A stretch of 64,000 nt of DNA from Candidatus Micrarchaeota archaeon (GTDB taxonomy: Archaea > Micrarchaeota > Micrarchaeia > Anstonellales > JAHKLY01), in NCBI GenBank assembly GCA_020854825.1, contig JAHKLY010000002.1, positions 31,487-95,486 of the forward strand, given 5' to 3'. Each line of letters opens with the position of its first letter. The first letter of the stretch is position 1. The notes under the pieces were generated by a model. The model saw only the letters and a program-made list of their open reading frames with translations, ran no database searches and was not told where the DNA came from. This document shows positions 3,945 to 42,638 of this stretch, piece after piece. A program made the position numbers and the translations under genes.

Positions 3945-6900
3945 TTGTGTATGTCTAATATTATAAAAAATATATTTTTAGTAGCATTTGTTTTAATTGT
4001 ATTTAGTTTTGGCATTGTAAATGCTTGGGTTCCTCAATGTAGTGGAAATACATATGACTTTATTTGTGGAGATATAGTAGATGAAAGCTGTATAATGAAT
4101 GGTAATTTAACTTCTATAGGAACGTGTTTTACAGTATATGCAGACAATATTGTAATAGATTGTGATGGATATACAATCACAGGAAGTCAAACTGGATATG
4201 GAGTTTTAAATGACGGGTATGATAATGTTAGTATAAATGGATGTATAATACATGATTTTACAGTTGGAATACAATTTTATGATTCTACAATTGGATTAAT
4301 TTATAATAATACTGTTTATGATAATAATAATGGAATTACATTAGATAATAGTTCCTTAATTAATGTTTCTGGTAATGATGTATATGGTCATGATTATGGT
4401 ATTTCTTTAATAGATGGATCAAATAATAACACAGTAGCAGATAATAGTGTGAATGGCAATGACTTTGGTATTTATTTAACTATTAGTCCTGGTAATAATC
4501 TAACTAATAATTTTGTATGTAGAAATTCAGAAGTAGATGTATATGATAATGAATTTCCAAATAATAATTGGGCTAGAACTATATATTCCTCATCAGACCC
4601 AAATAATTCAACTTATTTTGCACAAGTAGGGGATTGTTCTTTTGAACAAGGAGTATGTGGACAATTTATAAATGAAGATATAGTATTAACTGAAGATATA
4701 GAATGTACTGAAGAAGGAATAGGAGATTCCGGAATTGTAGTTGAAGCTGATAATATTACAATAGATTGTAATGGATATTCAATAATTGGTTTTATGGGTT
4801 CAGGGATTGGAGTTGAAGTTAGTGGTTATGATGGAATTACAATTATAAATTGCAACGTTTCAAATTTCCTGACCGGAATTTATGTTGAAGATTCTATAGG
4901 TACTGAAGTTTATGACAGTATAATATATTACAATGGTATGTTGGGGCCCGATATGACTGGAATTCATTTCTATAATGTGAATTATTCAGCCATATATAAC
5001 AACTTAGTTCATGAAAATGATATTGGAATTGTTCTTGAAGATTCATACGAAAATGAAGTTTATGAAAATGAAGTGTATGATAATCTATTCCAAGGCATAC
5101 ATCTTGTAAATTCTGAACATAATGTGATTTATGATAATCACATATACTGGAATGCTGACATTGGTTTGTACATTTTAAATTCAACTAACAACTTGTTTGA
5201 AAATAATACAGTTTGCACTAATAGGTTATCTGATATTCTTTTTAGGGGGACAAGCGAAGGAAATGAAGGAGACAATACCTGCAATGTTCTTGATGATACT
5301 GAGGAAGATATGAACATGGAAGTAACTTGTTCAATTACTTGTCCATATTATGGCAATTGCGGTGATGAAATTGACGGAGATATTGTTTTAGCAAGGGATA
5401 TTGAAGATTGCGAAGACGGTTTAATAGTAACCACAGATAACATTGTAATTGACTGTAATGGATATAGAATTTATGGTGATGGAATAAATGGCGGAATAGG
5501 AATTTTAGTTGATAGTTTGGATAATATAACAATAAAGAATTGCACTATCAAATATTTCGGGGTAGGTATTGCTTTGTTTAATTCTAATTCCAGCACACTT
5601 ATGAGCAATTATATGGATTCCAATGGTATGGGTGGAGAAACCGGAATCTATATGTTTAATAGCAATTATACAACAGTTGAAAACAATTTAGTTGAAAATG
5701 ATGACGGCACGGGCATAAACCTGGAATTTGGGTTTTTGAATACTCTTACCAATAACACTTTGTTAAACAATCTTTATGGTATCTATTTAATATCTAGCCA
5801 CAATAATACTTTGACAGATAATACTGCGAATGAAAATGTATTCGGAATTGATTTAGGTAATTCTGCAAACAATACATTATCTGGAAACACTGCAAATAAA
5901 AATATAGTAGTAGGGGTTTATTTAACTGGTACGAGTACTAACAATTACTTAATTGAGAATACTGTAAATCAAAACATAGGTGAAACTTATGGAATATTAT
6001 TATCAGAGGGAGCAGATGAAAATACCTTAATAAACAATACAATAATTGGCAATACTGCGGGTATGAACGTAGGTTCTTTAAATAATACATTAATAGACAA
6101 TTTCGCTTGTGCAAATATTGTTGATATTATTGATTATACTGATGGAAATGATTGGACAAGAACAACTTATACTTTCTCTGATCCAGTGAACACAACATAT
6201 TTTGATCAATTAGCCACTTGTCCATTTATTCAAGGTTTATGCGGACAGACAGTAACTGAAAGTGTAACTTTAACAGAAGACATTGTTTGCGAAGAAGGGG
6301 ATATATTTAGTCCCCGGCCTACTGCATTGGTAATCGGGGCAAATAACCTCACAATTGACTGTGATGGAAACTATTTAATCGGATATGCAGATTATGCAGG
6401 AATTTTATCATCTGGATACAATAATACTGAAATAATAAATTGTGATATTTCAGGATTCTTTTACGGAATCTATTTTGAGGACTCAAACAATTCAATTGTA
6501 GAGGATTCAAATCTTCATGAAAATATGTGTGAGGGAATGTATATCTACTCTTCCAGTGAGGACCCATATCATGCATACGTTTATGATACAGTTTTTGAAG
6601 ATAATTATCAAGAATGTGTACTGACTGGATTGTATTTATCTTCGTCCACATTATTTATGTGGAACAGTGAATTCATAAATAATGGAGAATATGGGTTATA
6701 CGAGGAGTTTAGGGGCATTCCAGATACTGTTTATTGGACCATAGATGATTATGCATATTGCAAGGACAACGGAATTTATATCAGCACAGCAGACGGTTAC
6801 ATAACTTTTGATGAAGGTGTTTTGGAAATAGATAACTGTACAATTGAGATATATAACAGAGAAACAGAAACATGGGCAATATGGTCTATAGAAGGTAACA

Positions 6901-7670
6901 TGACTGATTATATACCAGAAAGAGAAGTTGAAGCAAATGAATCTGAAGAATTTGTGTTTGAAAATTCAGATGCAATAATAACTTTAGAATTAAATGAAAC
7001 AACAAATATTTCATTCTTTGTTGGTTTATTAAATGCAGGTCAATTAGAAGCATTAGGAGATTCTCCAACAGGATTAATTCCATTCAAAGGAATAAATGTA
7101 GAAATTAATGAAAATGAAATAAATGGTACTATAACAATTTGTATTACCTATACTGATGATGAATTAGATGATGCAGGAATAGAAGAAGATACATTAGTTA
7201 TGTATTATTTCAATGAAACATCTGATGAATGGGAAATAATAACTCTCCAAAGGCAAGGGTCAAATAGAGTATGTGCAGAAATACCACATTTCAGTATATA
7301 TGCATTATTTGGTGAAAAAACTGAAGAAGATGGAGGCTCACCTAGAGGAAGCAGTTATACTGGTGGCGGTGCAAGACCAGTAGGACAGAGTCCAATAACA
7401 ACTGAAGAAGAAGAGGAAGAATTACAAATAGATGAAGAAGAATTAGAAGAAGAAATAATAGTACCAGAAAAACCAAGTGAAGAAATACCAGATGAAAAAC
7501 CAATAGATACAACTAAACCATATGTACCTCCAACAATTGAAGAACAACAAGAAGAAAGTGATTTTACAGGTATATATATTGTTGCAGGAATAATTATAAT
7601 TGCAGGAATAATATACTGGTGGATGACAGCAGCAAAAGCAGGTAAAAAAGGATTAATGAGATTTAAATAA
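3945..7670 (+). CDS. large cell-surface protein with parallel beta-helix (NosD/pectate-lyase-like) repeats, acidic linker and C-terminal TM anchor
   Basis: Signal peptide. Repeated I(D/E)CNGY(T/S/R)I(T/I/Y)G and N-x-(I/V)-x-x-N repeat units typical of right-handed beta-helix proteins. Two long internal module duplications (WARTIYSSSDPNNSTYFAQVGDCSFEQGVCGQ / WTRTTYTFSDPVNTTYFDQLATCPFIQGLCGQ). E/P-rich spacer. C-terminal hydrophobic helix plus basic tail (..IIYWWMTAAKAGKKGLMRFK). Confidence 0.7.
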   Translation: MCMSNIIKNIFLVAFVLIVFSFGIVNAWVPQCSGNTYDFICGDIVDESCIMNGNLTSIGTCFTVYADNIVIDCDGYTITGSQTGYGVLNDGYDNVSINGCIIHDFTVGIQFYDSTIGLIYNNTVYDNNNGITLDNSSLINVSGNDVYGHDYGISLIDGSNNNTVADNSVNGNDFGIYLTISPGNNLTNNFVCRNSEVDVYDNEFPNNNWARTIYSSSDPNNSTYFAQVGDCSFEQGVCGQFINEDIVLTEDIECTEEGIGDSGIVVEADNITIDCNGYSIIGFMGSGIGVEVSGYDGITIINCNVSNFLTGIYVEDSIGTEVYDSIIYYNGMLGPDMTGIHFYNVNYSAIYNNLVHENDIGIVLEDSYENEVYENEVYDNLFQGIHLVNSEHNVIYDNHIYWNADIGLYILNSTNNLFENNTVCTNRLSDILFRGTSEGNEGDNTCNVLDDTEEDMNMEVTCSITCPYYGNCGDEIDGDIVLARDIEDCEDGLIVTTDNIVIDCNGYRIYGDGINGGIGILVDSLDNITIKNCTIKYFGVGIALFNSNSSTLMSNYMDSNGMGGETGIYMFNSNYTTVENNLVENDDGTGINLEFGFLNTLTNNTLLNNLYGIYLISSHNNTLTDNTANENVFGIDLGNSANNTLSGNTANKNIVVGVYLTGTSTNNYLIENTVNQNIGETYGILLSEGADENTLINNTIIGNTAGMNVGSLNNTLIDNFACANIVDIIDYTDGNDWTRTTYTFSDPVNTTYFDQLATCPFIQGLCGQTVTESVTLTEDIVCEEGDIFSPRPTALVIGANNLTIDCDGNYLIGYADYAGILSSGYNNTEIINCDISGFFYGIYFEDSNNSIVEDSNLHENMCEGMYIYSSSEDPYHAYVYDTVFEDNYQECVLTGLYLSSSTLFMWNSEFINNGEYGLYEEFRGIPDTVYWTIDDYAYCKDNGIYISTADGYITFDEGVLEIDNCTIEIYNRETETWAIWSIEGNMTDYIPEREVEANESEEFVFENSDAIITLELNETTNISFFVGLLNAGQLEALGDSPTGLIPFKGINVEINENEINGTITICITYTDDELDDAGIEEDTLVMYYFNETSDEWEIITLQRQGSNRVCAEIPHFSIYALFGEKTEEDGGSPRGSSYTGGGARPVGQSPITTEEEEEELQIDEEELEEEIIVPEKPSEEIPDEKPIDTTKPYVPPTIEEQQEESDFTGIYIVAGIIIIAGIIYWWMTAAKAGKKGLMRFK

Positions 7671-38392: not shown

Positions 38393-39043
38393 ATGAAACA
38401 ATTTTCAGTTTATCTAGATGATTTACATGCAATTTATATATTAGATCCTAAGAATAAATTTAATTTTCAGTTTTTTCAAGATAAACCAAAGGAGATTTAT
38501 ATTCACCATACAGGAAATAATTCACATAGTTTAGAAGAAGCTTATAATATAGGAATTTCAAGATTTAATCAGCCTTCATATCATTTTATAATAGATAGAA
38601 AAGGGTCAATATATCAAACTCTTCCAATAAATGTAGCAGGTGCACATGTTAGACGCCATAATGAAAACTCATTTGGGATCGCACTTTTAGATTTAATTTC
38701 ACCTTCTTCTCCTACTCTAGCGATGAAATATTCATTGGGTGCATTAATTGATTTTCTTAAATCTAATTATCCCATAGAAAAAGTCTCTACTCATGTTGAA
38801 GCAACAGTTTCTGATGTTAATGAAATAATAGAACAGACGAGAATAAAACAGGATTTACCTTTATTAGATATAAATGAGATAGGTGAATTGACATTAAGTA
38901 ATGTCGAAAAGTATAAGGAAAATGTTAAAAAAGAAATTAAATATTCAGATGTAGATAAGATTGTAAAAGATTTGTTAAACCAAAGAGTAGAATATGTTAA
39001 AAATTGTCCAGGTCCATATTTCAAAGATCTTTTAGATTTATAA
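38393..39043 (+). CDS. N-acetylmuramoyl-L-alanine amidase (Amidase_2/PGRP) domain protein
   Basis: IYIHHTGN...YHFIIDRKGSIYQ...AGAHV...NSFGIALLD matches the Amidase_2 zinc-amidase core (HHT, IDR.G, AxH, S.GI). Confidence 0.6.
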   Translation: MKQFSVYLDDLHAIYILDPKNKFNFQFFQDKPKEIYIHHTGNNSHSLEEAYNIGISRFNQPSYHFIIDRKGSIYQTLPINVAGAHVRRHNENSFGIALLDLISPSSPTLAMKYSLGALIDFLKSNYPIEKVSTHVEATVSDVNEIIEQTRIKQDLPLLDINEIGELTLSNVEKYKENVKKEIKYSDVDKIVKDLLNQRVEYVKNCPGPYFKDLLDL

Positions 39044-39185
39044 TCTAAAAATAATAGTATAAATTTAATTTATAAAGTTAAAGTTGCTATTTCTGTTAAG
39101 ACATCAAAGTATAATTATTGCACATTATCTCGAAAGATCTATATGCTTTAAAAACCTATATGTTGTAGTATTAGAGTACTTATAA

Positions 39186-39201
39186 ACACAATATATTGTG
39201 T
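39186..39201. promoter_or_regulatory. NrdR-box operator (perfect 16-bp palindrome ACACAATATATTGTGT)
   Basis: Matches the bacterial NrdR-box consensus acaCwAtATaTwGtgt. Lies 53 bp upstream of the nrdR start, inside the nrdR-nrdDG leader. Confidence 0.6.
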
Positions 39202-39253
39202 TTTAAGATATTTATCAATAGGTGTGAAAAATGATTAAAATGAGGCGTAATTT

Positions 39254-39706
39254 ATGAGATGTCCATATTGTATGTATGAAGATACTAAAGTTATTGATTC
39301 AAGGCAAGATGAGGACATTGTTAGAAGAAGAAGGGAGTGCGAAAAATGTGAAAAAAGATTCACTACTTTTGAAAGAGCAGAAATTGTCGAGTTTTATGTT
39401 ATTAAAAAAGATGGGAGAAGAGAGCTTTTTGACAGAAAAAAATTAAGATCGGGCATAATAAAAGCATGTGAAAAAAGACCAATAAGTCAAGAACAAATAG
39501 AAGAATTAGTTGATATAATAGAAAAAAAATTGAGGCAACGAAAAACATTGGAAGTTAATTCAACTTTAGTAGGAGATTGTGTTATGAAAAAACTAAAAGT
39601 AATAGACACAATTGCATATATTCGATTTGCTTCAGTTTATAAAGAATTTGATGATATTGAGTCTTTTGAAGCAACTCTTGAAAATCTTAAGAATAAAAAG
39701 GGGTGA
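39254..39706 (+). CDS. nrdR: transcriptional repressor NrdR (zinc ribbon + ATP-cone)
   Basis: MRCPYCMYEDTKVIDSRQ...RRRRECEKCEKRFTTFE is the canonical NrdR N-terminus. ATP-cone follows. 150 aa. Confidence 0.85.
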   Translation: MRCPYCMYEDTKVIDSRQDEDIVRRRRECEKCEKRFTTFERAEIVEFYVIKKDGRRELFDRKKLRSGIIKACEKRPISQEQIEELVDIIEKKLRQRKTLEVNSTLVGDCVMKKLKVIDTIAYIRFASVYKEFDDIESFEATLENLKNKKG

Positions 39707-39710
39707 AAAA

Positions 39711-41906
39711 ATGGAAGTATCGCAAATAAGAAAAAGAGATGGGACAATCGTTTTGTTTAATAAACAAAAGATTATTGATGCAATTTGGAAAGCTATGAGA
39801 ACTGTTAATGAAGGAGATAGAGATAGGGCAGAAGAAGTAGCAGATCAAGTAGTTGAATTATTAAATCATAAATTTAGGAAAACAACTTCCCCTACAGTTG
39901 AAGAAATTCAAGACGTTATTGAAGAAGTGTTAATTTTAAATAAGTATGTTAAAACTTCAAAAGCATTTATTTTATATAGAAAACAGCATTCAGATGTTAG
40001 AAGAATGGCTAGTTTAATGAATACAGTAGAAACAATAGAAAAGTATATAGACCAAGCAGACTGGAGAGTAAAAGAAAATGCTAATATGACATATTCATTA
40101 CAAGGATTAAATAATCATATTGCAAGTTTAGTTGTTGCAGAATATTGGTTAGATAAATTATATCCTTCAAAAATTGCATTTGCACATAGAAATGCAGAGA
40201 TACATATACATGATTTAAGTACTTTAGGAGCTTATTGTGTAGGTTGGGATTTACAAGATGTATTGATGACAGGGTTCACAGGAGTGGAAGGAAAGATACA
40301 ATCAAAACCACCCAAACATTTAAGAGTAGTTTTAGGACAAATAGTCAATTATATTTATACATTGCAAGGTGAGACTGCAGGTGCGCAAGCATTTAGTAAT
40401 TTTGATACGCTTTTAGCTCCATTTGTAAGATATGATAGATTAGATTACCAGCAATTAAAACAAACTTTTCAGGAATTTTTATTTAACATGAATGTACCTA
40501 CGAGAGTTGGATTTCAAACACCATTTTCTAATATAACTATGGACCTAACTCCCCATCCTAGTTATAAAAATTTACCTGTAATCATTGGGGGTAAAATGAC
40601 TGACGATGTTTATGGTGATTTTCAAGAAGAAATGAATATGATTAATCAAGTTTTTGCTGAAGCAATGATAGAAGGAGATGCACATGGAAGAATTTTTACT
40701 TTTCCAATACCTACATATAATATTACAAAAGATTTTGATTGGGATTCACCAGAAGTTAAAAAAGTATTTGAAATGACTGCAAAATATGGAATTCCTTATT
40801 TTTCAAATTTTATAAATAGTGATATGAAACCAGAAGATGCCCGCAGTATGTGTTGCCGACTTAGGCTTGACAATAGGGAATTAAGAAAAAGAGGCGGAGG
40901 ATTATTTGGTGCAAATCCGCTAACTGGCAGTATAGGAGTAGTAACGATTAATCTTCCAAGAATTGGATATTTAGCAAGAACTGAAGAAGAATATTTTGAA
41001 AAATTAGATGAAGCAATGGATTTAGCATATACTAGTTTAGAAATAAAAAGAAAAGTATTAGAAAGTTTTACAGAACGTGGATTGTACCCATATTCTAAAT
41101 TTTATTTAAGAAAAATAAAAGAAACTCATAACCAATATTGGAAAAATCATTTTAGTACAATAGGATTAATTGGTATGAATGAGTCTATGATGAATATGTT
41201 TGGTTCTGGGTTATTAGATACTGAAAGTAGAAAATTTGCAATAAAAATTTTAGATTACATGAGAAAAAAATTAGAAGACTATCAGTTAGAGTCAGGCAAT
41301 ATATTTAATTTAGAAGCAACACCTGGAGAAGGAACAACACACAGACTCGCAAAAATTGATAAAACAAATTATCCAAGCATAATTGTAGCTAATGAAGAAT
41401 CCTATCAGGAAAGAGGAGCAGCACCTTACTATACAAATTCAACCCAATTACACGTTGCATCAACAATAGATTTGTTTGACGCGTTGGATATAGAAGATGA
41501 ATTGCAAACCAAGTATACTGGGGGGACCGTATTTCATACTTTTCTAGGAGAAAAAATTCAAGATTGGAAAATGACAAGAGAGTTAGTTAAAAAAATTGCA
41601 CATAATTTTAAACTCCCGTATTTTACATTGACTCCAACTTTCAGTGTTTGTCCCGTTCATGGGTATATTGCAGGAGAATATGAAGTATGCCCTAAATGTG
41701 ATGAAGAAATAGGGTATGCAGGCATGATAAGACAACTTAATCAAGGTAAAACTATAGATCAAGAAATTTTAGAAGCAACAAAGAAAAAAAGGAATTATTG
41801 TGAAGTATATAGTAGAGTGGTTGGATATATACGACCAGTTAAACAATGGAATGCAGGAAAGGTAGAGGAATATAAGGAAAGAAAAGTTTTTGACAAATGT
41901 TTTTAA
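39711..41906 (+). CDS. nrdD: anaerobic ribonucleoside-triphosphate reductase (class III) NrdD
   Basis: N-terminal ATP-cone. C-terminal Zn ribbon CPVHG...CPKCDE. Glycyl-radical motif SRVVGY near the C-terminus. About 730 aa. Confidence 0.9.
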   Translation: MEVSQIRKRDGTIVLFNKQKIIDAIWKAMRTVNEGDRDRAEEVADQVVELLNHKFRKTTSPTVEEIQDVIEEVLILNKYVKTSKAFILYRKQHSDVRRMASLMNTVETIEKYIDQADWRVKENANMTYSLQGLNNHIASLVVAEYWLDKLYPSKIAFAHRNAEIHIHDLSTLGAYCVGWDLQDVLMTGFTGVEGKIQSKPPKHLRVVLGQIVNYIYTLQGETAGAQAFSNFDTLLAPFVRYDRLDYQQLKQTFQEFLFNMNVPTRVGFQTPFSNITMDLTPHPSYKNLPVIIGGKMTDDVYGDFQEEMNMINQVFAEAMIEGDAHGRIFTFPIPTYNITKDFDWDSPEVKKVFEMTAKYGIPYFSNFINSDMKPEDARSMCCRLRLDNRELRKRGGGLFGANPLTGSIGVVTINLPRIGYLARTEEEYFEKLDEAMDLAYTSLEIKRKVLESFTERGLYPYSKFYLRKIKETHNQYWKNHFSTIGLIGMNESMMNMFGSGLLDTESRKFAIKILDYMRKKLEDYQLESGNIFNLEATPGEGTTHRLAKIDKTNYPSIIVANEESYQERGAAPYYTNSTQLHVASTIDLFDALDIEDELQTKYTGGTVFHTFLGEKIQDWKMTRELVKKIAHNFKLPYFTLTPTFSVCPVHGYIAGEYEVCPKCDEEIGYAGMIRQLNQGKTIDQEILEATKKKRNYCEVYSRVVGYIRPVKQWNAGKVEEYKERKVFDKCF

Positions 41907-41912
41907 TTATTT

Positions 41913-42638
41913 GTGTATGAAATAAATGCGGGAGGTCAAAGGATGGAATTTGCATATATACAGAAGACTAGTCTAGTAGATTATCCAGGGAATATTTGTT
42001 CAACAGTATTTACCATAGGGTGTAATTTTAAGTGTCCTTTCTGTTATAATAAATCCTTAGTACTTCCTGAAGAGTTTCCAAGAAATCCTTTAACTGAAGA
42101 ACAAGTTTTATCAACTTTAATTAAAAGAAAAAAATTTGTTTCTGCAGTATGTATTACAGGAGGGGAACCCACAATGTATGATGAATTATATAATTTTATT
42201 AAATCTTTAAAAAATGAAGGTTTTTTAGTAAAATTAGATACTAATGGTACAAATCCTAAAATAATAAAAAAGTTAATAGAAAATAAATTAGTTGATTATA
42301 TTGCGATGGATATTAAAAATTCTTTTGAAAATTATACTCTTACTACAGGTGTAGATACCAATACTGATAATATTCAAGAGACAATTAAAATACTAAAAAA
42401 TAGTGATTTGGAATATGAATTAAGAATTACCATTGTTCCTTCAATTCATAAAATTGAGGATATCGAAAAAATAGGTATGGTATCTGGAGGAAATAATTTT
42501 TCAATACAAATTTTCAAAAGAACAAACACATTAATTGATTCTTCTTTAGTAAATGTTGCTCCTTTTTCACAAAATGAATTAAGTATGTTTAAAAAAACAG
42601 CAGAAAAATATTTTAGCAAAGTAGAGTTAAAAGGGTAA
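41913..42638 (+). CDS. nrdG: anaerobic RNR activating enzyme NrdG (radical SAM)
   Basis: CNFKCPFCYN radical-SAM CxxxCxxC cluster motif. 241 aa. Immediately downstream of nrdD. Confidence 0.8.
   Translation: MYEINAGGQRMEFAYIQKTSLVDYPGNICSTVFTIGCNFKCPFCYNKSLVLPEEFPRNPLTEEQVLSTLIKRKKFVSAVCITGGEPTMYDELYNFIKSLKNEGFLVKLDTNGTNPKIIKKLIENKLVDYIAMDIKNSFENYTLTTGVDTNTDNIQETIKILKNSDLEYELRITIVPSIHKIEDIEKIGMVSGGNNFSIQIFKRTNTLIDSSLVNVAPFSQNELSMFKKTAEKYFSKVELKG

What the first reader, a model, noticed from the sequence alone, without database searches (positions are those of the whole stretch)
39186..42638. Bacterial-type nrdR-nrdD-nrdG module with a perfect NrdR-box operator in an archaeal genome
A canonical NrdR repressor (zinc ribbon + ATP-cone) precedes a class III anaerobic RNR (glycyl-radical motif RVVGY, C-terminal Zn ribbon) and its radical-SAM activase. 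The leader carries a perfect 16-bp NrdR box, ACACAATATATTGTGT, 53 bp before nrdR. NrdR is predominantly a bacterial regulator. The complete regulator, operator and target arrangement suggests en-bloc acquisition from a bacterium and that dNTP synthesis here is strictly anaerobic and ATP/dATP-sensed.
Basis: partly seen in the sequence, partly recalled or inferred. Interest (0 to 1): 0.6.

Follow-up and report, generated by a model that had tools for sequence, protein, structure and literature searches.

The report
NrdR-repressed anaerobic ribonucleotide reductase operon, Micrarchaeota
A DPANN archaeon (Micrarchaeota) carries an ordinary, complete NrdR repressor, a two-box operator and an anaerobic ribonucleotide reductase operon; the module is inherited within archaea rather than recently taken from a bacterium, and its operator appears to sit behind an archaeal TATA box where bacteria have a -35 element.

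Summary
nrdR (39254-39706), nrdD (39711-41906) and nrdG (43 nt... 41943-42638) form one + strand operon on a clearly archaeal contig (100% identical proteins are filed as Candidatus Micrarchaeota). The perfect NrdR box (39186-39201) is unique in the window. In six relatives these two boxes plus an abutting TTTAAAAA are the only conserved non-coding blocks.

Recent en-bloc capture from a bacterium is not supported. All named top hits of NrdD are archaeal (Micrarchaeota, Aenigmarchaeota, Bathyarchaeia). The nearest NrdR and NrdG are from DPANN archaea, then CPR bacteria. The same nrdR-nrdD-nrdG cassette with boxes occurs in other Micrarchaeota, Parvarchaeota and Bathyarchaeia. Local synteny and codon usage are native. 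Deep origin stays unresolved. "Strictly anaerobic dNTP supply" cannot be judged from 64 kb.

One result goes beyond the finding. In 9 of 9 bacterial relatives a TTGAC -35 abuts the distal box and a -10 lies in the spacer. In 0 of 19 archaeal loci is this so; instead 17 of 19 have a TATA-like element upstream. This is a new member of a known kind and of modest interest.

The parts
39147..39154 (+). TTTAAAAA, candidate archaeal TATA box; its 3' end overlaps positions 1-2 of the distal NrdR box
   Evidence: Invariant in 7 related Micrarchaeota leaders whose flanks have diverged (alignment A1). TTTAAAWA/TTTATAAA motifs lie 30-70 nt upstream of many genes in the window. The TATA function is inferred, not shown.
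39153..39168 (+). Distal (weaker) NrdR box, AACCTATATGTTGTAG
   Evidence: It matches 11 of 16 consensus positions and all 6 critical ones (C4 A6 A8 T9 T11 G13). The core CCTATATGTTGT is invariant in relatives apart from two substitutions in L001.
39169..39185 (+). 17-bp spacer, not conserved in sequence; predicted transcription start near 39178
   Evidence: The six relatives have 16 bp and the window has a 1-nt insertion. Spacers of 14-17 bp bind and repress in four tested NrdRs (PMC12051234). The start site is inferred from the usual archaeal distance between TATA box and start (established knowledge).
39186..39201 (+). Proximal NrdR box, ACACAATATATTGTGT (perfect; the 20-bp palindrome is 39184-39203)
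   Evidence: It matches 16 of 16 consensus positions and is unique in the window. It is conserved in relatives and in other archaeal phyla.
39242..39245 (+). GAGG ribosome-binding site of nrdR
   Evidence: Read from the sequence. Similar GGTG/GAGG motifs precede most genes of the window.
39254..39706 (+). nrdR: Zn-ribbon plus ATP-cone repressor, 150 aa
   Evidence: TIGR00244 191 bits. Full-length match to E. coli and S. coelicolor NrdR structures, E 1e-39 and 2e-32. C3, C6, C29, C32, D15, R17, R24-27 and R35 are present.
39711..41906 (+). nrdD: class III ribonucleoside-triphosphate reductase with its own N-terminal ATP-cone, 731 aa, no intein
   Evidence: NF006126 1043 bits; Pfam ATP-cone and NRDD. 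It starts 4 nt after the nrdR stop codon.
41943..42638 (+). nrdG: radical-SAM activase of NrdD, 231 aa
   Evidence: TIGR02495 NrdG2 191 bits. GGAGGT lies upstream of the ATG.

Best explanation
This is a functional, self-regulated nrdR-nrdD-nrdG operon of a Micrarchaeota (DPANN) archaeon, inherited within its lineage.

Proposed mechanism, by homology with S. coelicolor and E. coli NrdR. When dATP rises relative to ATP, NrdR carrying ATP plus dATP forms a tetramer. Its two Zn-ribbon pairs bind the two boxes (39153-39168 and 39186-39201). Bound there, it shuts off transcription of its own gene, of the class III reductase and of the activase. When only ATP is bound, it forms an oligomer that cannot bind DNA, and the operon is expressed. 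NrdD carries a second ATP-cone, so the enzyme itself is probably also inhibited by dATP.

Proposed promoter. It is archaeal: a TATA-like TTTAAAAA (39147-39154) abuts the distal box. That places the boxes at about -25 to -10 and +9 to +24 around a start near 39178, where a bound tetramer would exclude TFB and RNA polymerase.

What is shown: gene identities, both boxes, their conservation, their spacing, and conservation of the DNA-contact residues.
What is inferred: nucleotide switching, repression, TATA function and the start site.
For: - Family membership above the curated cut-offs for all three proteins.
- NrdR aligns end to end with solved NrdRs. The residues that contact DNA in the S. coelicolor complex (PMC9110341) are invariant in 22 archaeal and 62 bacterial sequences, apart from single D15E and R24K exchanges.
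- The perfect box plus a partner keeping all six critical positions is the only such pair in 64 kb.
- Phylogenetic footprint: the two boxes plus TTTAAAAA are the only conserved non-coding blocks among 7 leaders.
- Box pairs 31-32 bp apart lie upstream of nrdR in archaeal loci from Micrarchaeota, Aenigmatarchaeota, Woesearchaeota, Parvarchaeota and Nanoarchaeota, with a weaker, half-degenerate pair in Bathyarchaeia.
- A 17-bp spacer is within the functional range.
- In archaea nrdR always directly precedes an RNR gene, class III or class II, or in one case a cobalamin adenosyltransferase.
- TATA-like motifs lie upstream of the distal box in 17 of 19 archaeal loci. In 9 of 9 bacterial loci the same place holds TTGAC, with a -10 in the spacer.
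- Vertical inheritance: conserved neighbourhood, window clade supported 200 of 200, native composition.
Against: - There is no experimental datum for any archaeal NrdR.
- The transcription start is unknown. A second TATA-like CTTATAAA (39179-39186) in the spacer is not conserved in relatives but could be used in this genome.
- The distal box is weak (11 of 16).
- The 19 archaeal loci are not independent; 6 belong to the window's own clade.
- Two GC-rich Micrarchaeota loci (L008, L010) show no TATA-like motif upstream of the boxes.
- The trees are neighbour-joining on a sample biased towards the query.
Confidence: 0.78

Rival explanations
1. One reading: the regulator, operator and target genes were captured together from a bacterium by this genome or its recent ancestors.
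For: - NrdR is commoner in bacteria (77% against 22% of genomes).
- Haloarchaeal nrdR-nrdAB operons were attributed to transfer from bacteria (PMC3019208).
- CPR bacteria intermingle with DPANN in the NrdR tree, and a Gottesmanbacteria locus (L020) has the same gene order with NrdD 57% identical.
- NrdG hits include CPR at 44-48%.
Against: - NrdD's named top hits are all archaeal, and it is only 22-29% identical to the Bacillota and Elusimicrobia NrdDs.
- The closest NrdR, NrdD and NrdG are all from Micrarchaeota.
- The cassette and its boxes occur across several archaeal phyla, including non-DPANN Bathyarchaeia.
- Synteny with secDF and the amidase is conserved.
- There is no compositional signal.
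- The promoter is of archaeal type, not sigma-70 type.
Confidence: 0.07
2. The module is functional, but NrdR acts on a different promoter geometry. Transcription could start downstream of the proximal box, using the spacer's CTTATAAA or the AT core of a box as the TATA box, so that NrdR competes directly with TBP. Alternatively it could act as a roadblock in a long leader transcribed from further upstream.
For: - CTTATAAA at 39179-39186 abuts the proximal box.
- Box cores (ATATAT) resemble TATA boxes.
- In L008 and L010 the only TATA-like motif lies in the spacer.
- In L003, L004, L009, L014, L015 and L088 the TATA-like motif lies 15-22 bp further upstream of the distal box, so the geometry varies between lineages.
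Against: - CTTATAAA is not conserved in the six relatives, whereas TTTAAAAA upstream of the distal box is invariant.
- The conserved position matches that of the bacterial -35.
Confidence: 0.13
3. The palindrome is not an NrdR operator. It could be a chance AT-rich palindrome, the terminator of the upstream amidase gene, a leader-RNA hairpin, or the site of another factor.
For: - The genome has 28% GC.
- The loose published box-pair regular expression fires 14 times in the window.
- As RNA the palindrome folds into a hairpin followed by U's.
Against: - It is a 16 of 16 match, unique in the window.
- A strict-core pair is expected in 3% of simulated windows.
- Box identity and spacer length, but not spacer sequence, are conserved across archaeal phyla and bacteria, always in front of nrdR.
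- The leader fold is unremarkable (z -0.37), and no terminator-like site was found.
Confidence: 0.02

Closest known systems
Streptomyces coelicolor nrdRJ operon with NrdR (cryo-EM complex 7P37; PMC9110341)
   Same: - nrdR is the first gene of an RNR operon and is preceded by two 16-bp NrdR boxes, so it regulates itself.
- The architecture is Zn-ribbon plus ATP-cone.
- D15, R17, the RRRR motif and the CxxC pairs are conserved.
   Different: - The target here is class III (nrdDG), not class II.
- The host is an archaeon with a presumed TATA/TFB promoter instead of sigma-70 -35/-10 elements.
- The spacer is 17 bp rather than 15 bp.
- The protein has no C-terminal extension (150 against 195 aa).
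Escherichia coli NrdR and its nrdDG promoter (PMC12176259, PMC13584703)
   Same: - NrdR represses a class III nrdDG operon through a pair of boxes.
- The window NrdR aligns over its full length with E. coli NrdR at E 1e-39.
   Different: - In E. coli nrdR is unlinked to nrdDG and controls three RNR operons.
- Here a single operator was found in 64 kb, and nrdR is co-transcribed with its target.
Haloarchaeal nrdR-nrdAB / nrdR-nrdBA operons (Lundin et al. 2010, PMC3019208)
   Same: An archaeal genome with nrdR placed directly upstream of an RNR operon.
   Different: - Those are class I operons, some on plasmids, shown phylogenetically to come from bacteria.
- Here NrdD is of an archaeal-dominated subtype, and the cassette is chromosomal, syntenic among relatives and widespread in DPANN and Bathyarchaeia.
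Archaeal repressors of bacterial type that bind downstream of the TATA box and block polymerase recruitment (for example MDR1, LrpA, Phr; from general knowledge, not tested here)
   Same: The operator is predicted to lie between the TATA box and the start site and to overlap the start.
   Different: NrdR uses a Zn-ribbon, not a helix-turn-helix, kinks DNA sharply at each box, and is switched by ATP/dATP-driven oligomerisation.

Membership tests
NrdR (TIGR00244) transcriptional repressor | N-terminal Zn-ribbon with two CxxC motifs | tested here: met
   C3/C6 and C29/C32; PF22811 64.7 bits; invariant in the 84-sequence alignment.
NrdR (TIGR00244) transcriptional repressor | ATP-cone domain following the Zn-ribbon, with a full-length match above the curated cut-off | tested here: met
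   PF03477 79.9 bits over residues 48-134; TIGR00244 191.1 bits against a cut-off of 124.65, model positions 1-147 of 147.
NrdR (TIGR00244) transcriptional repressor | DNA-contact residues of the S. coelicolor complex: D15 and R17 (specificity); R12, R26-29 and R37 (backbone) | tested here: met
   D15, R17, K12, R24-27 and R35 (a two-residue shorter loop) are present and conserved in archaeal and bacterial relatives.
NrdR (TIGR00244) transcriptional repressor | A pair of 16-bp NrdR boxes with conserved C4, A6, A8, T9, T11 and G13, separated by 14-17 (or 24-27) bp, upstream of an RNR operon | tested here: met
   Boxes at 39153-39168 and 39186-39201 with a 17-bp spacer. Criteria taken from PMC13584703 and PMC12051234.
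NrdR (TIGR00244) transcriptional repressor | DNA binding that depends on ATP plus dATP, with switching between oligomeric states | not testable with these tools
   Needs purified protein (MST/EMSA, GEMMA or SEC).
Class III ribonucleotide reductase NrdD | NRDD catalytic domain with C-terminal glycyl-radical motif (RVVGY), thiyl-radical cysteine and C-terminal Cys cluster | tested here: met
   PF13597 641 bits; NF006126 1043 bits; TIGR02487 561 bits. RVVGY, MCCRL and four C-terminal Cys read in the translation.
Class III ribonucleotide reductase NrdD | Allosteric activity site (N-terminal ATP-cone) | tested here: met
   PF03477 72.6 bits over residues 5-94. Function is inferred from P. copri NrdD as cited in PMC12051234.
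NrdG activase (TIGR02495, NrdG2) | Radical-SAM core with a CxxxCxxC cluster, encoded next to nrdD | tested here: met
   TIGR02495 191.3 bits against a cut-off of 131.15; GCNFKCPFC in the translation; the gene starts 36 nt after nrdD ends.
Recently transferred bacterial gene cluster | Nearest relatives bacterial; atypical composition; no synteny in related archaea | tested here: not met
   Nearest relatives are archaeal. GC, GC3 and codon usage lie within the background. Synteny is conserved.

The most novel reading that the evidence does not exclude
The NrdR operator may be a repression cassette that works in both domains. The same two-box geometry sits just downstream of the first core-promoter element in each: the -35 TTGACA in bacteria, the TATA box in archaea. 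The regulator-operator-enzyme unit could then move between CPR bacteria and DPANN or Bathyarchaeia archaea with only the core promoter being rewritten. NrdR would then be a nucleotide-sensing Zn-ribbon repressor acting on a TBP/TFB promoter, widespread in archaea, contrary to published statements that NrdR boxes or NrdR orthologues are absent from archaea (PMC4009431; bioRxiv 2025.03.28.645925).
Probability: 0.5. Interest if true: 0.5.

Novelty: new member of a known kind. Interest (0 to 1): 0.33.

Why it matters
NrdR has been studied only in bacteria and is promoted as a bacteria-specific drug target. Papers disagree on whether archaea have it at all. This locus and about 20 related ones show a canonical NrdR with canonical paired boxes in front of class III or class II reductase genes. 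They span DPANN phyla and Bathyarchaeia. For organisms with tiny genomes and few regulators, keeping a dedicated dNTP-supply repressor is informative about what they must still control. The contrast between TATA and -35 at the same place beside the operator gives a simple, testable case of how one operator design serves two different transcription machineries. None of this changes what NrdR is, so the finding is solid but ordinary in kind.

Tried and rejected
- The published regular expression for NrdR box pairs (PMC12051234) was applied to the window. It fires 14 times against about 4 in simulations and matches many non-NrdR AT-rich stretches, so it is useless at 28% GC. It was replaced by a strict six-position core.
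- The three 3-mismatch matches to the palindrome (6190, 15479, 16109) lie in coding sequence without a partner and were rejected as chance.
- A downstream second box (39217-39233) is not present (read).
- An Rfam and tRNA scan of the window found nothing.
- The leader RNA structure is not better than shuffles. The sigma-70 promoter and terminator scan gave no excess.
- Monophyly of archaeal NrdR was rejected (0 of 200 bootstraps). The split of archaea plus CPR plus Elusimicrobia from other bacteria has only 52% support, so no direction of transfer is claimed.
- A search of the window for a class I or II reductase with three DPANN NrdJ sequences hit only the ATP-cone of NrdD.
- A literature search linking NrdR with DPANN, Micrarchaeota or Bathyarchaeota found no paper that holds NrdR.
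Full report
**1. What is in the sequence**

The + strand from 39254 to 42638 holds three tightly packed genes.
- nrdR, 39254-39706 (150 aa): Zn_ribbon_NrdR plus ATP-cone; TIGR00244 at 191 bits against a cut-off of 124.65.
- nrdD, 39711-41906 (731 aa): ATP-cone plus NRDD; NF006126 at 1043 bits. It starts 4 nt after the nrdR stop codon.
- nrdG, 41943-42638 (231 aa): TIGR02495 NrdG2 at 191 bits.

The glycyl-radical motif RVVGY, the MCCRL thiyl loop and four C-terminal cysteines are visible in the NrdD translation.

The palindrome ACACAATATATTGTGT lies at 39186-39201, 52 nt before the ATG. It is the only perfect match in the window. It is the core of a 20-bp perfect palindrome (39184-39203).

**2. 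The host**

The contig is archaeal beyond doubt. It also encodes:
- both subunits of DNA polymerase D;
- proteasome alpha and beta subunits;
- the exosome core and SBDS;
- FttA/aCPSF1, CDC48, and a ThrRS with the archaea-specific editing domain.

NrdR, NrdD and NrdG are each 100% identical to NCBI proteins of a 'Candidatus Micrarchaeota archaeon' on a 239-kb contig, where they are already annotated under these names. GC is about 28% throughout. The nrd genes do not stand out in GC, GC3 or codon usage.

**3. The operator**

Published work defines a functional NrdR site as two boxes in which C4, A6, A8, T9, T11 and G13 matter most, separated by 15-16 bp (PMC13584703). Spacers of 14-17 bp, and 24-27 bp, bind in vitro and repress in vivo (PMC12051234).
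- The window has such a partner: AACCTATATGTTGTAG at 39153-39168. It keeps all six positions and has a 17-bp spacer.
- A strict-core pair at 30-33 bp occurs once in the window and in 3% of simulated windows.
- The looser published regular expression is uninformative at this base composition.
- No other credible NrdR site is in the 64 kb.

**4. Comparative support**

I aligned the leader with six relatives whose NrdR is 70-94% identical. Only two blocks are conserved: TTTAAAAAC joined to the distal box, and the proximal box. The spacer is free to vary in sequence. It is 16 bp in all six relatives, so the window's 17 bp is a single-base insertion.

Among species-representative genomes, the 15 loci closest to the window NrdR are all DPANN archaea. 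Box pairs 31-32 bp apart precede nrdR in Micrarchaeota, Aenigmatarchaeota, Woesearchaeota, Parvarchaeota and Nanoarchaeota loci. A Bathyarchaeia locus has one good box and a degenerate partner.

In these archaea nrdR always sits directly in front of one of the following:
- a reductase gene: class III in the window's relatives, a Pacearchaeota locus and Bathyarchaeia, class II in many others;
- in one case, a cobalamin adenosyltransferase.

The residues that contact DNA in the S. coelicolor complex (D15, R17, the RRRR motif, R37) are invariant across 22 archaeal and 62 bacterial sequences, apart from single D15E and R24K exchanges. The protein aligns end to end with the solved E. coli and S. 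coelicolor NrdRs.

**5. How it most likely works**

By homology (inference): NrdR loaded with ATP alone is sequestered in an oligomer that cannot bind DNA. As dATP rises, an ATP/dATP-loaded tetramer binds both boxes and kinks the DNA (PMC9110341). Because the boxes precede nrdR itself, the circuit is self-regulating. NrdD's own ATP-cone adds control at the enzyme level.

The promoter part is new but unproven.
- TTTAAAWA/TTTATAAA motifs precede many genes of this window at 30-70 nt. The invariant TTTAAAAA (39147-39154) abuts the distal box.
- With the usual archaeal distance from TATA box to start site (established knowledge), transcription would begin near 39178. The boxes would then lie at about -25 to -10 and +9 to +24. 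This is the position from which archaeal repressors typically exclude TFB and RNA polymerase.
- In all 9 bacterial relatives with a clear box pair, TTGAC(A) abuts the distal box and a -10-like hexamer opens the spacer. None of 19 archaeal loci has either element.
- Instead, 17 of 19 archaeal loci have a TATA-like motif within 34 nt upstream. In 9 of these it directly abuts the box.

Caveats:
- The loci are not independent.
- The offset varies between archaeal lineages.
- Two GC-rich loci lack an upstream TATA-like motif.
- This window has an unconserved CTTATAAA in the spacer that could be an alternative TATA box.

**6. Origin**

- NrdD: every named hit among the best 120 is archaeal (Micrarchaeota 64-100%, Aenigmarchaeota, and many Bathyarchaeia at 60-62%). 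The Bacillota and Elusimicrobia NrdDs next to related nrdR genes are 22-29% identical. Solved bacterial and phage NrdDs match only weakly. In a neighbour-joining tree the window NrdD lies in an archaeal-dominated clade, whose one bacterial member is a CPR Gottesmanbacteria sequence (57% identity). That locus has the same gene order but a sigma-70-type promoter.
- NrdG: the ranking is Micrarchaeota, Woesearchaeota, Diapherotrites, then CPR.
- NrdR: the window clade has 200 of 200 support. Archaea are never monophyletic to the exclusion of CPR (0 of 200). The deeper split from other bacteria has only 52% support.
- Neighbourhood: secF-secD-(gene)-amidase-nrdR-nrdD is retained in relatives.

The evidence therefore fits long residence in archaea, with some ancient exchange with CPR bacteria in an unresolved direction. 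'Strictly anaerobic' dNTP synthesis cannot be judged: no class I or II reductase is in the window, but most of the genome was not available.

**7. Relation to what is known**

NrdR and its boxes are well characterised in bacteria. For archaea the literature is inconsistent:
- 'some archaea' or 'rare in archaea' (PMC9110341, PMC12176259);
- 22% of archaeal genomes (PMC13584703);
- the NrdR box 'absent in archaea' (PMC4009431);

The one analysed archaeal case is the haloarchaeal nrdR-nrdAB operons, ascribed to transfer from bacteria (PMC3019208). No paper in the searchable library links NrdR to DPANN or Bathyarchaeia.

The locus passes every testable membership criterion for NrdR, NrdD and NrdG. 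It is a new member of a known kind, already correctly annotated in GenBank.

**8. Verdict**

Interest is modest. The main added value is documentation that canonical NrdR operators are common in DPANN and Bathyarchaeia, and the testable TATA-for--35 substitution beside an otherwise identical operator.

Noticed in passing
L081:4458-8453, L083:4461-8453, L084:4459-8453 (compare window 39711-41906): The NrdD genes of the closest relatives (NrdR 83-94% identical) are interrupted by inteins with LAGLIDADG domains. The insertions fall at window-NrdD residues about 270 and about 381, the second next to the MCCRL active-site cysteines. The window's NrdD has none at either site.
   Followed up: partly
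L009:4335-6815 and L088:3001-5559 (protein P0223, 852 aa): In two independent loci nrdR and nrdD are fused in frame with no stop codon. The single polypeptide has a Zn-ribbon, an ATP-cone, a second ATP-cone and NRDD, that is, a repressor joined to the enzyme it regulates. Both loci keep an NrdR box pair upstream.
   Followed up: partly
window 38393-39043 (+): An N-acetylmuramoyl-L-alanine amidase (Amidase_2) gene lies directly upstream of the nrd operon in an archaeon. It is syntenic in relatives (L081-L084). It may act on bacterial cell walls rather than on the archaeon's own envelope.
   Followed up: no
L017, L018, L020, L022, L027, L036, L038, L049, L075 (upstream of nrdR): In all nine bacterial relatives with a clear box pair, the -35 hexamer TTGAC(A) directly abuts the distal NrdR box. 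A -10-like hexamer (TATAAT, TAAGCT, TACTAT) opens the spacer. This is a very regular operator-promoter interlock.
   Followed up: yes
L008:1149-1676: In one Micrarchaeota locus nrdR is followed by a cobalamin adenosyltransferase instead of a reductase gene. This suggests NrdR control of supply of the class II RNR cofactor.
   Followed up: no
L020:5001-8338 (Candidatus Gottesmanbacteria, CPR): A CPR bacterium carries nrdR-nrdD-nrdG with an NrdD 57% identical to the window's archaeal-type enzyme, but behind a sigma-70-type promoter. It is a candidate for inter-domain exchange of the whole cassette.
   Followed up: partly
window, whole: The published loose regular expression for NrdR box pairs matches 14 times in this window against about 4 in Markov simulations. 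Apart from the nrdR leader, most matches are plain AT-rich sequence. Genome-wide box counts in AT-rich genomes made with it would be inflated.
   Followed up: partly
window 3945-7670 (+): A 1241-aa protein made of repeated right-handed beta-helix/NosD units, probably a large surface protein.
   Followed up: no
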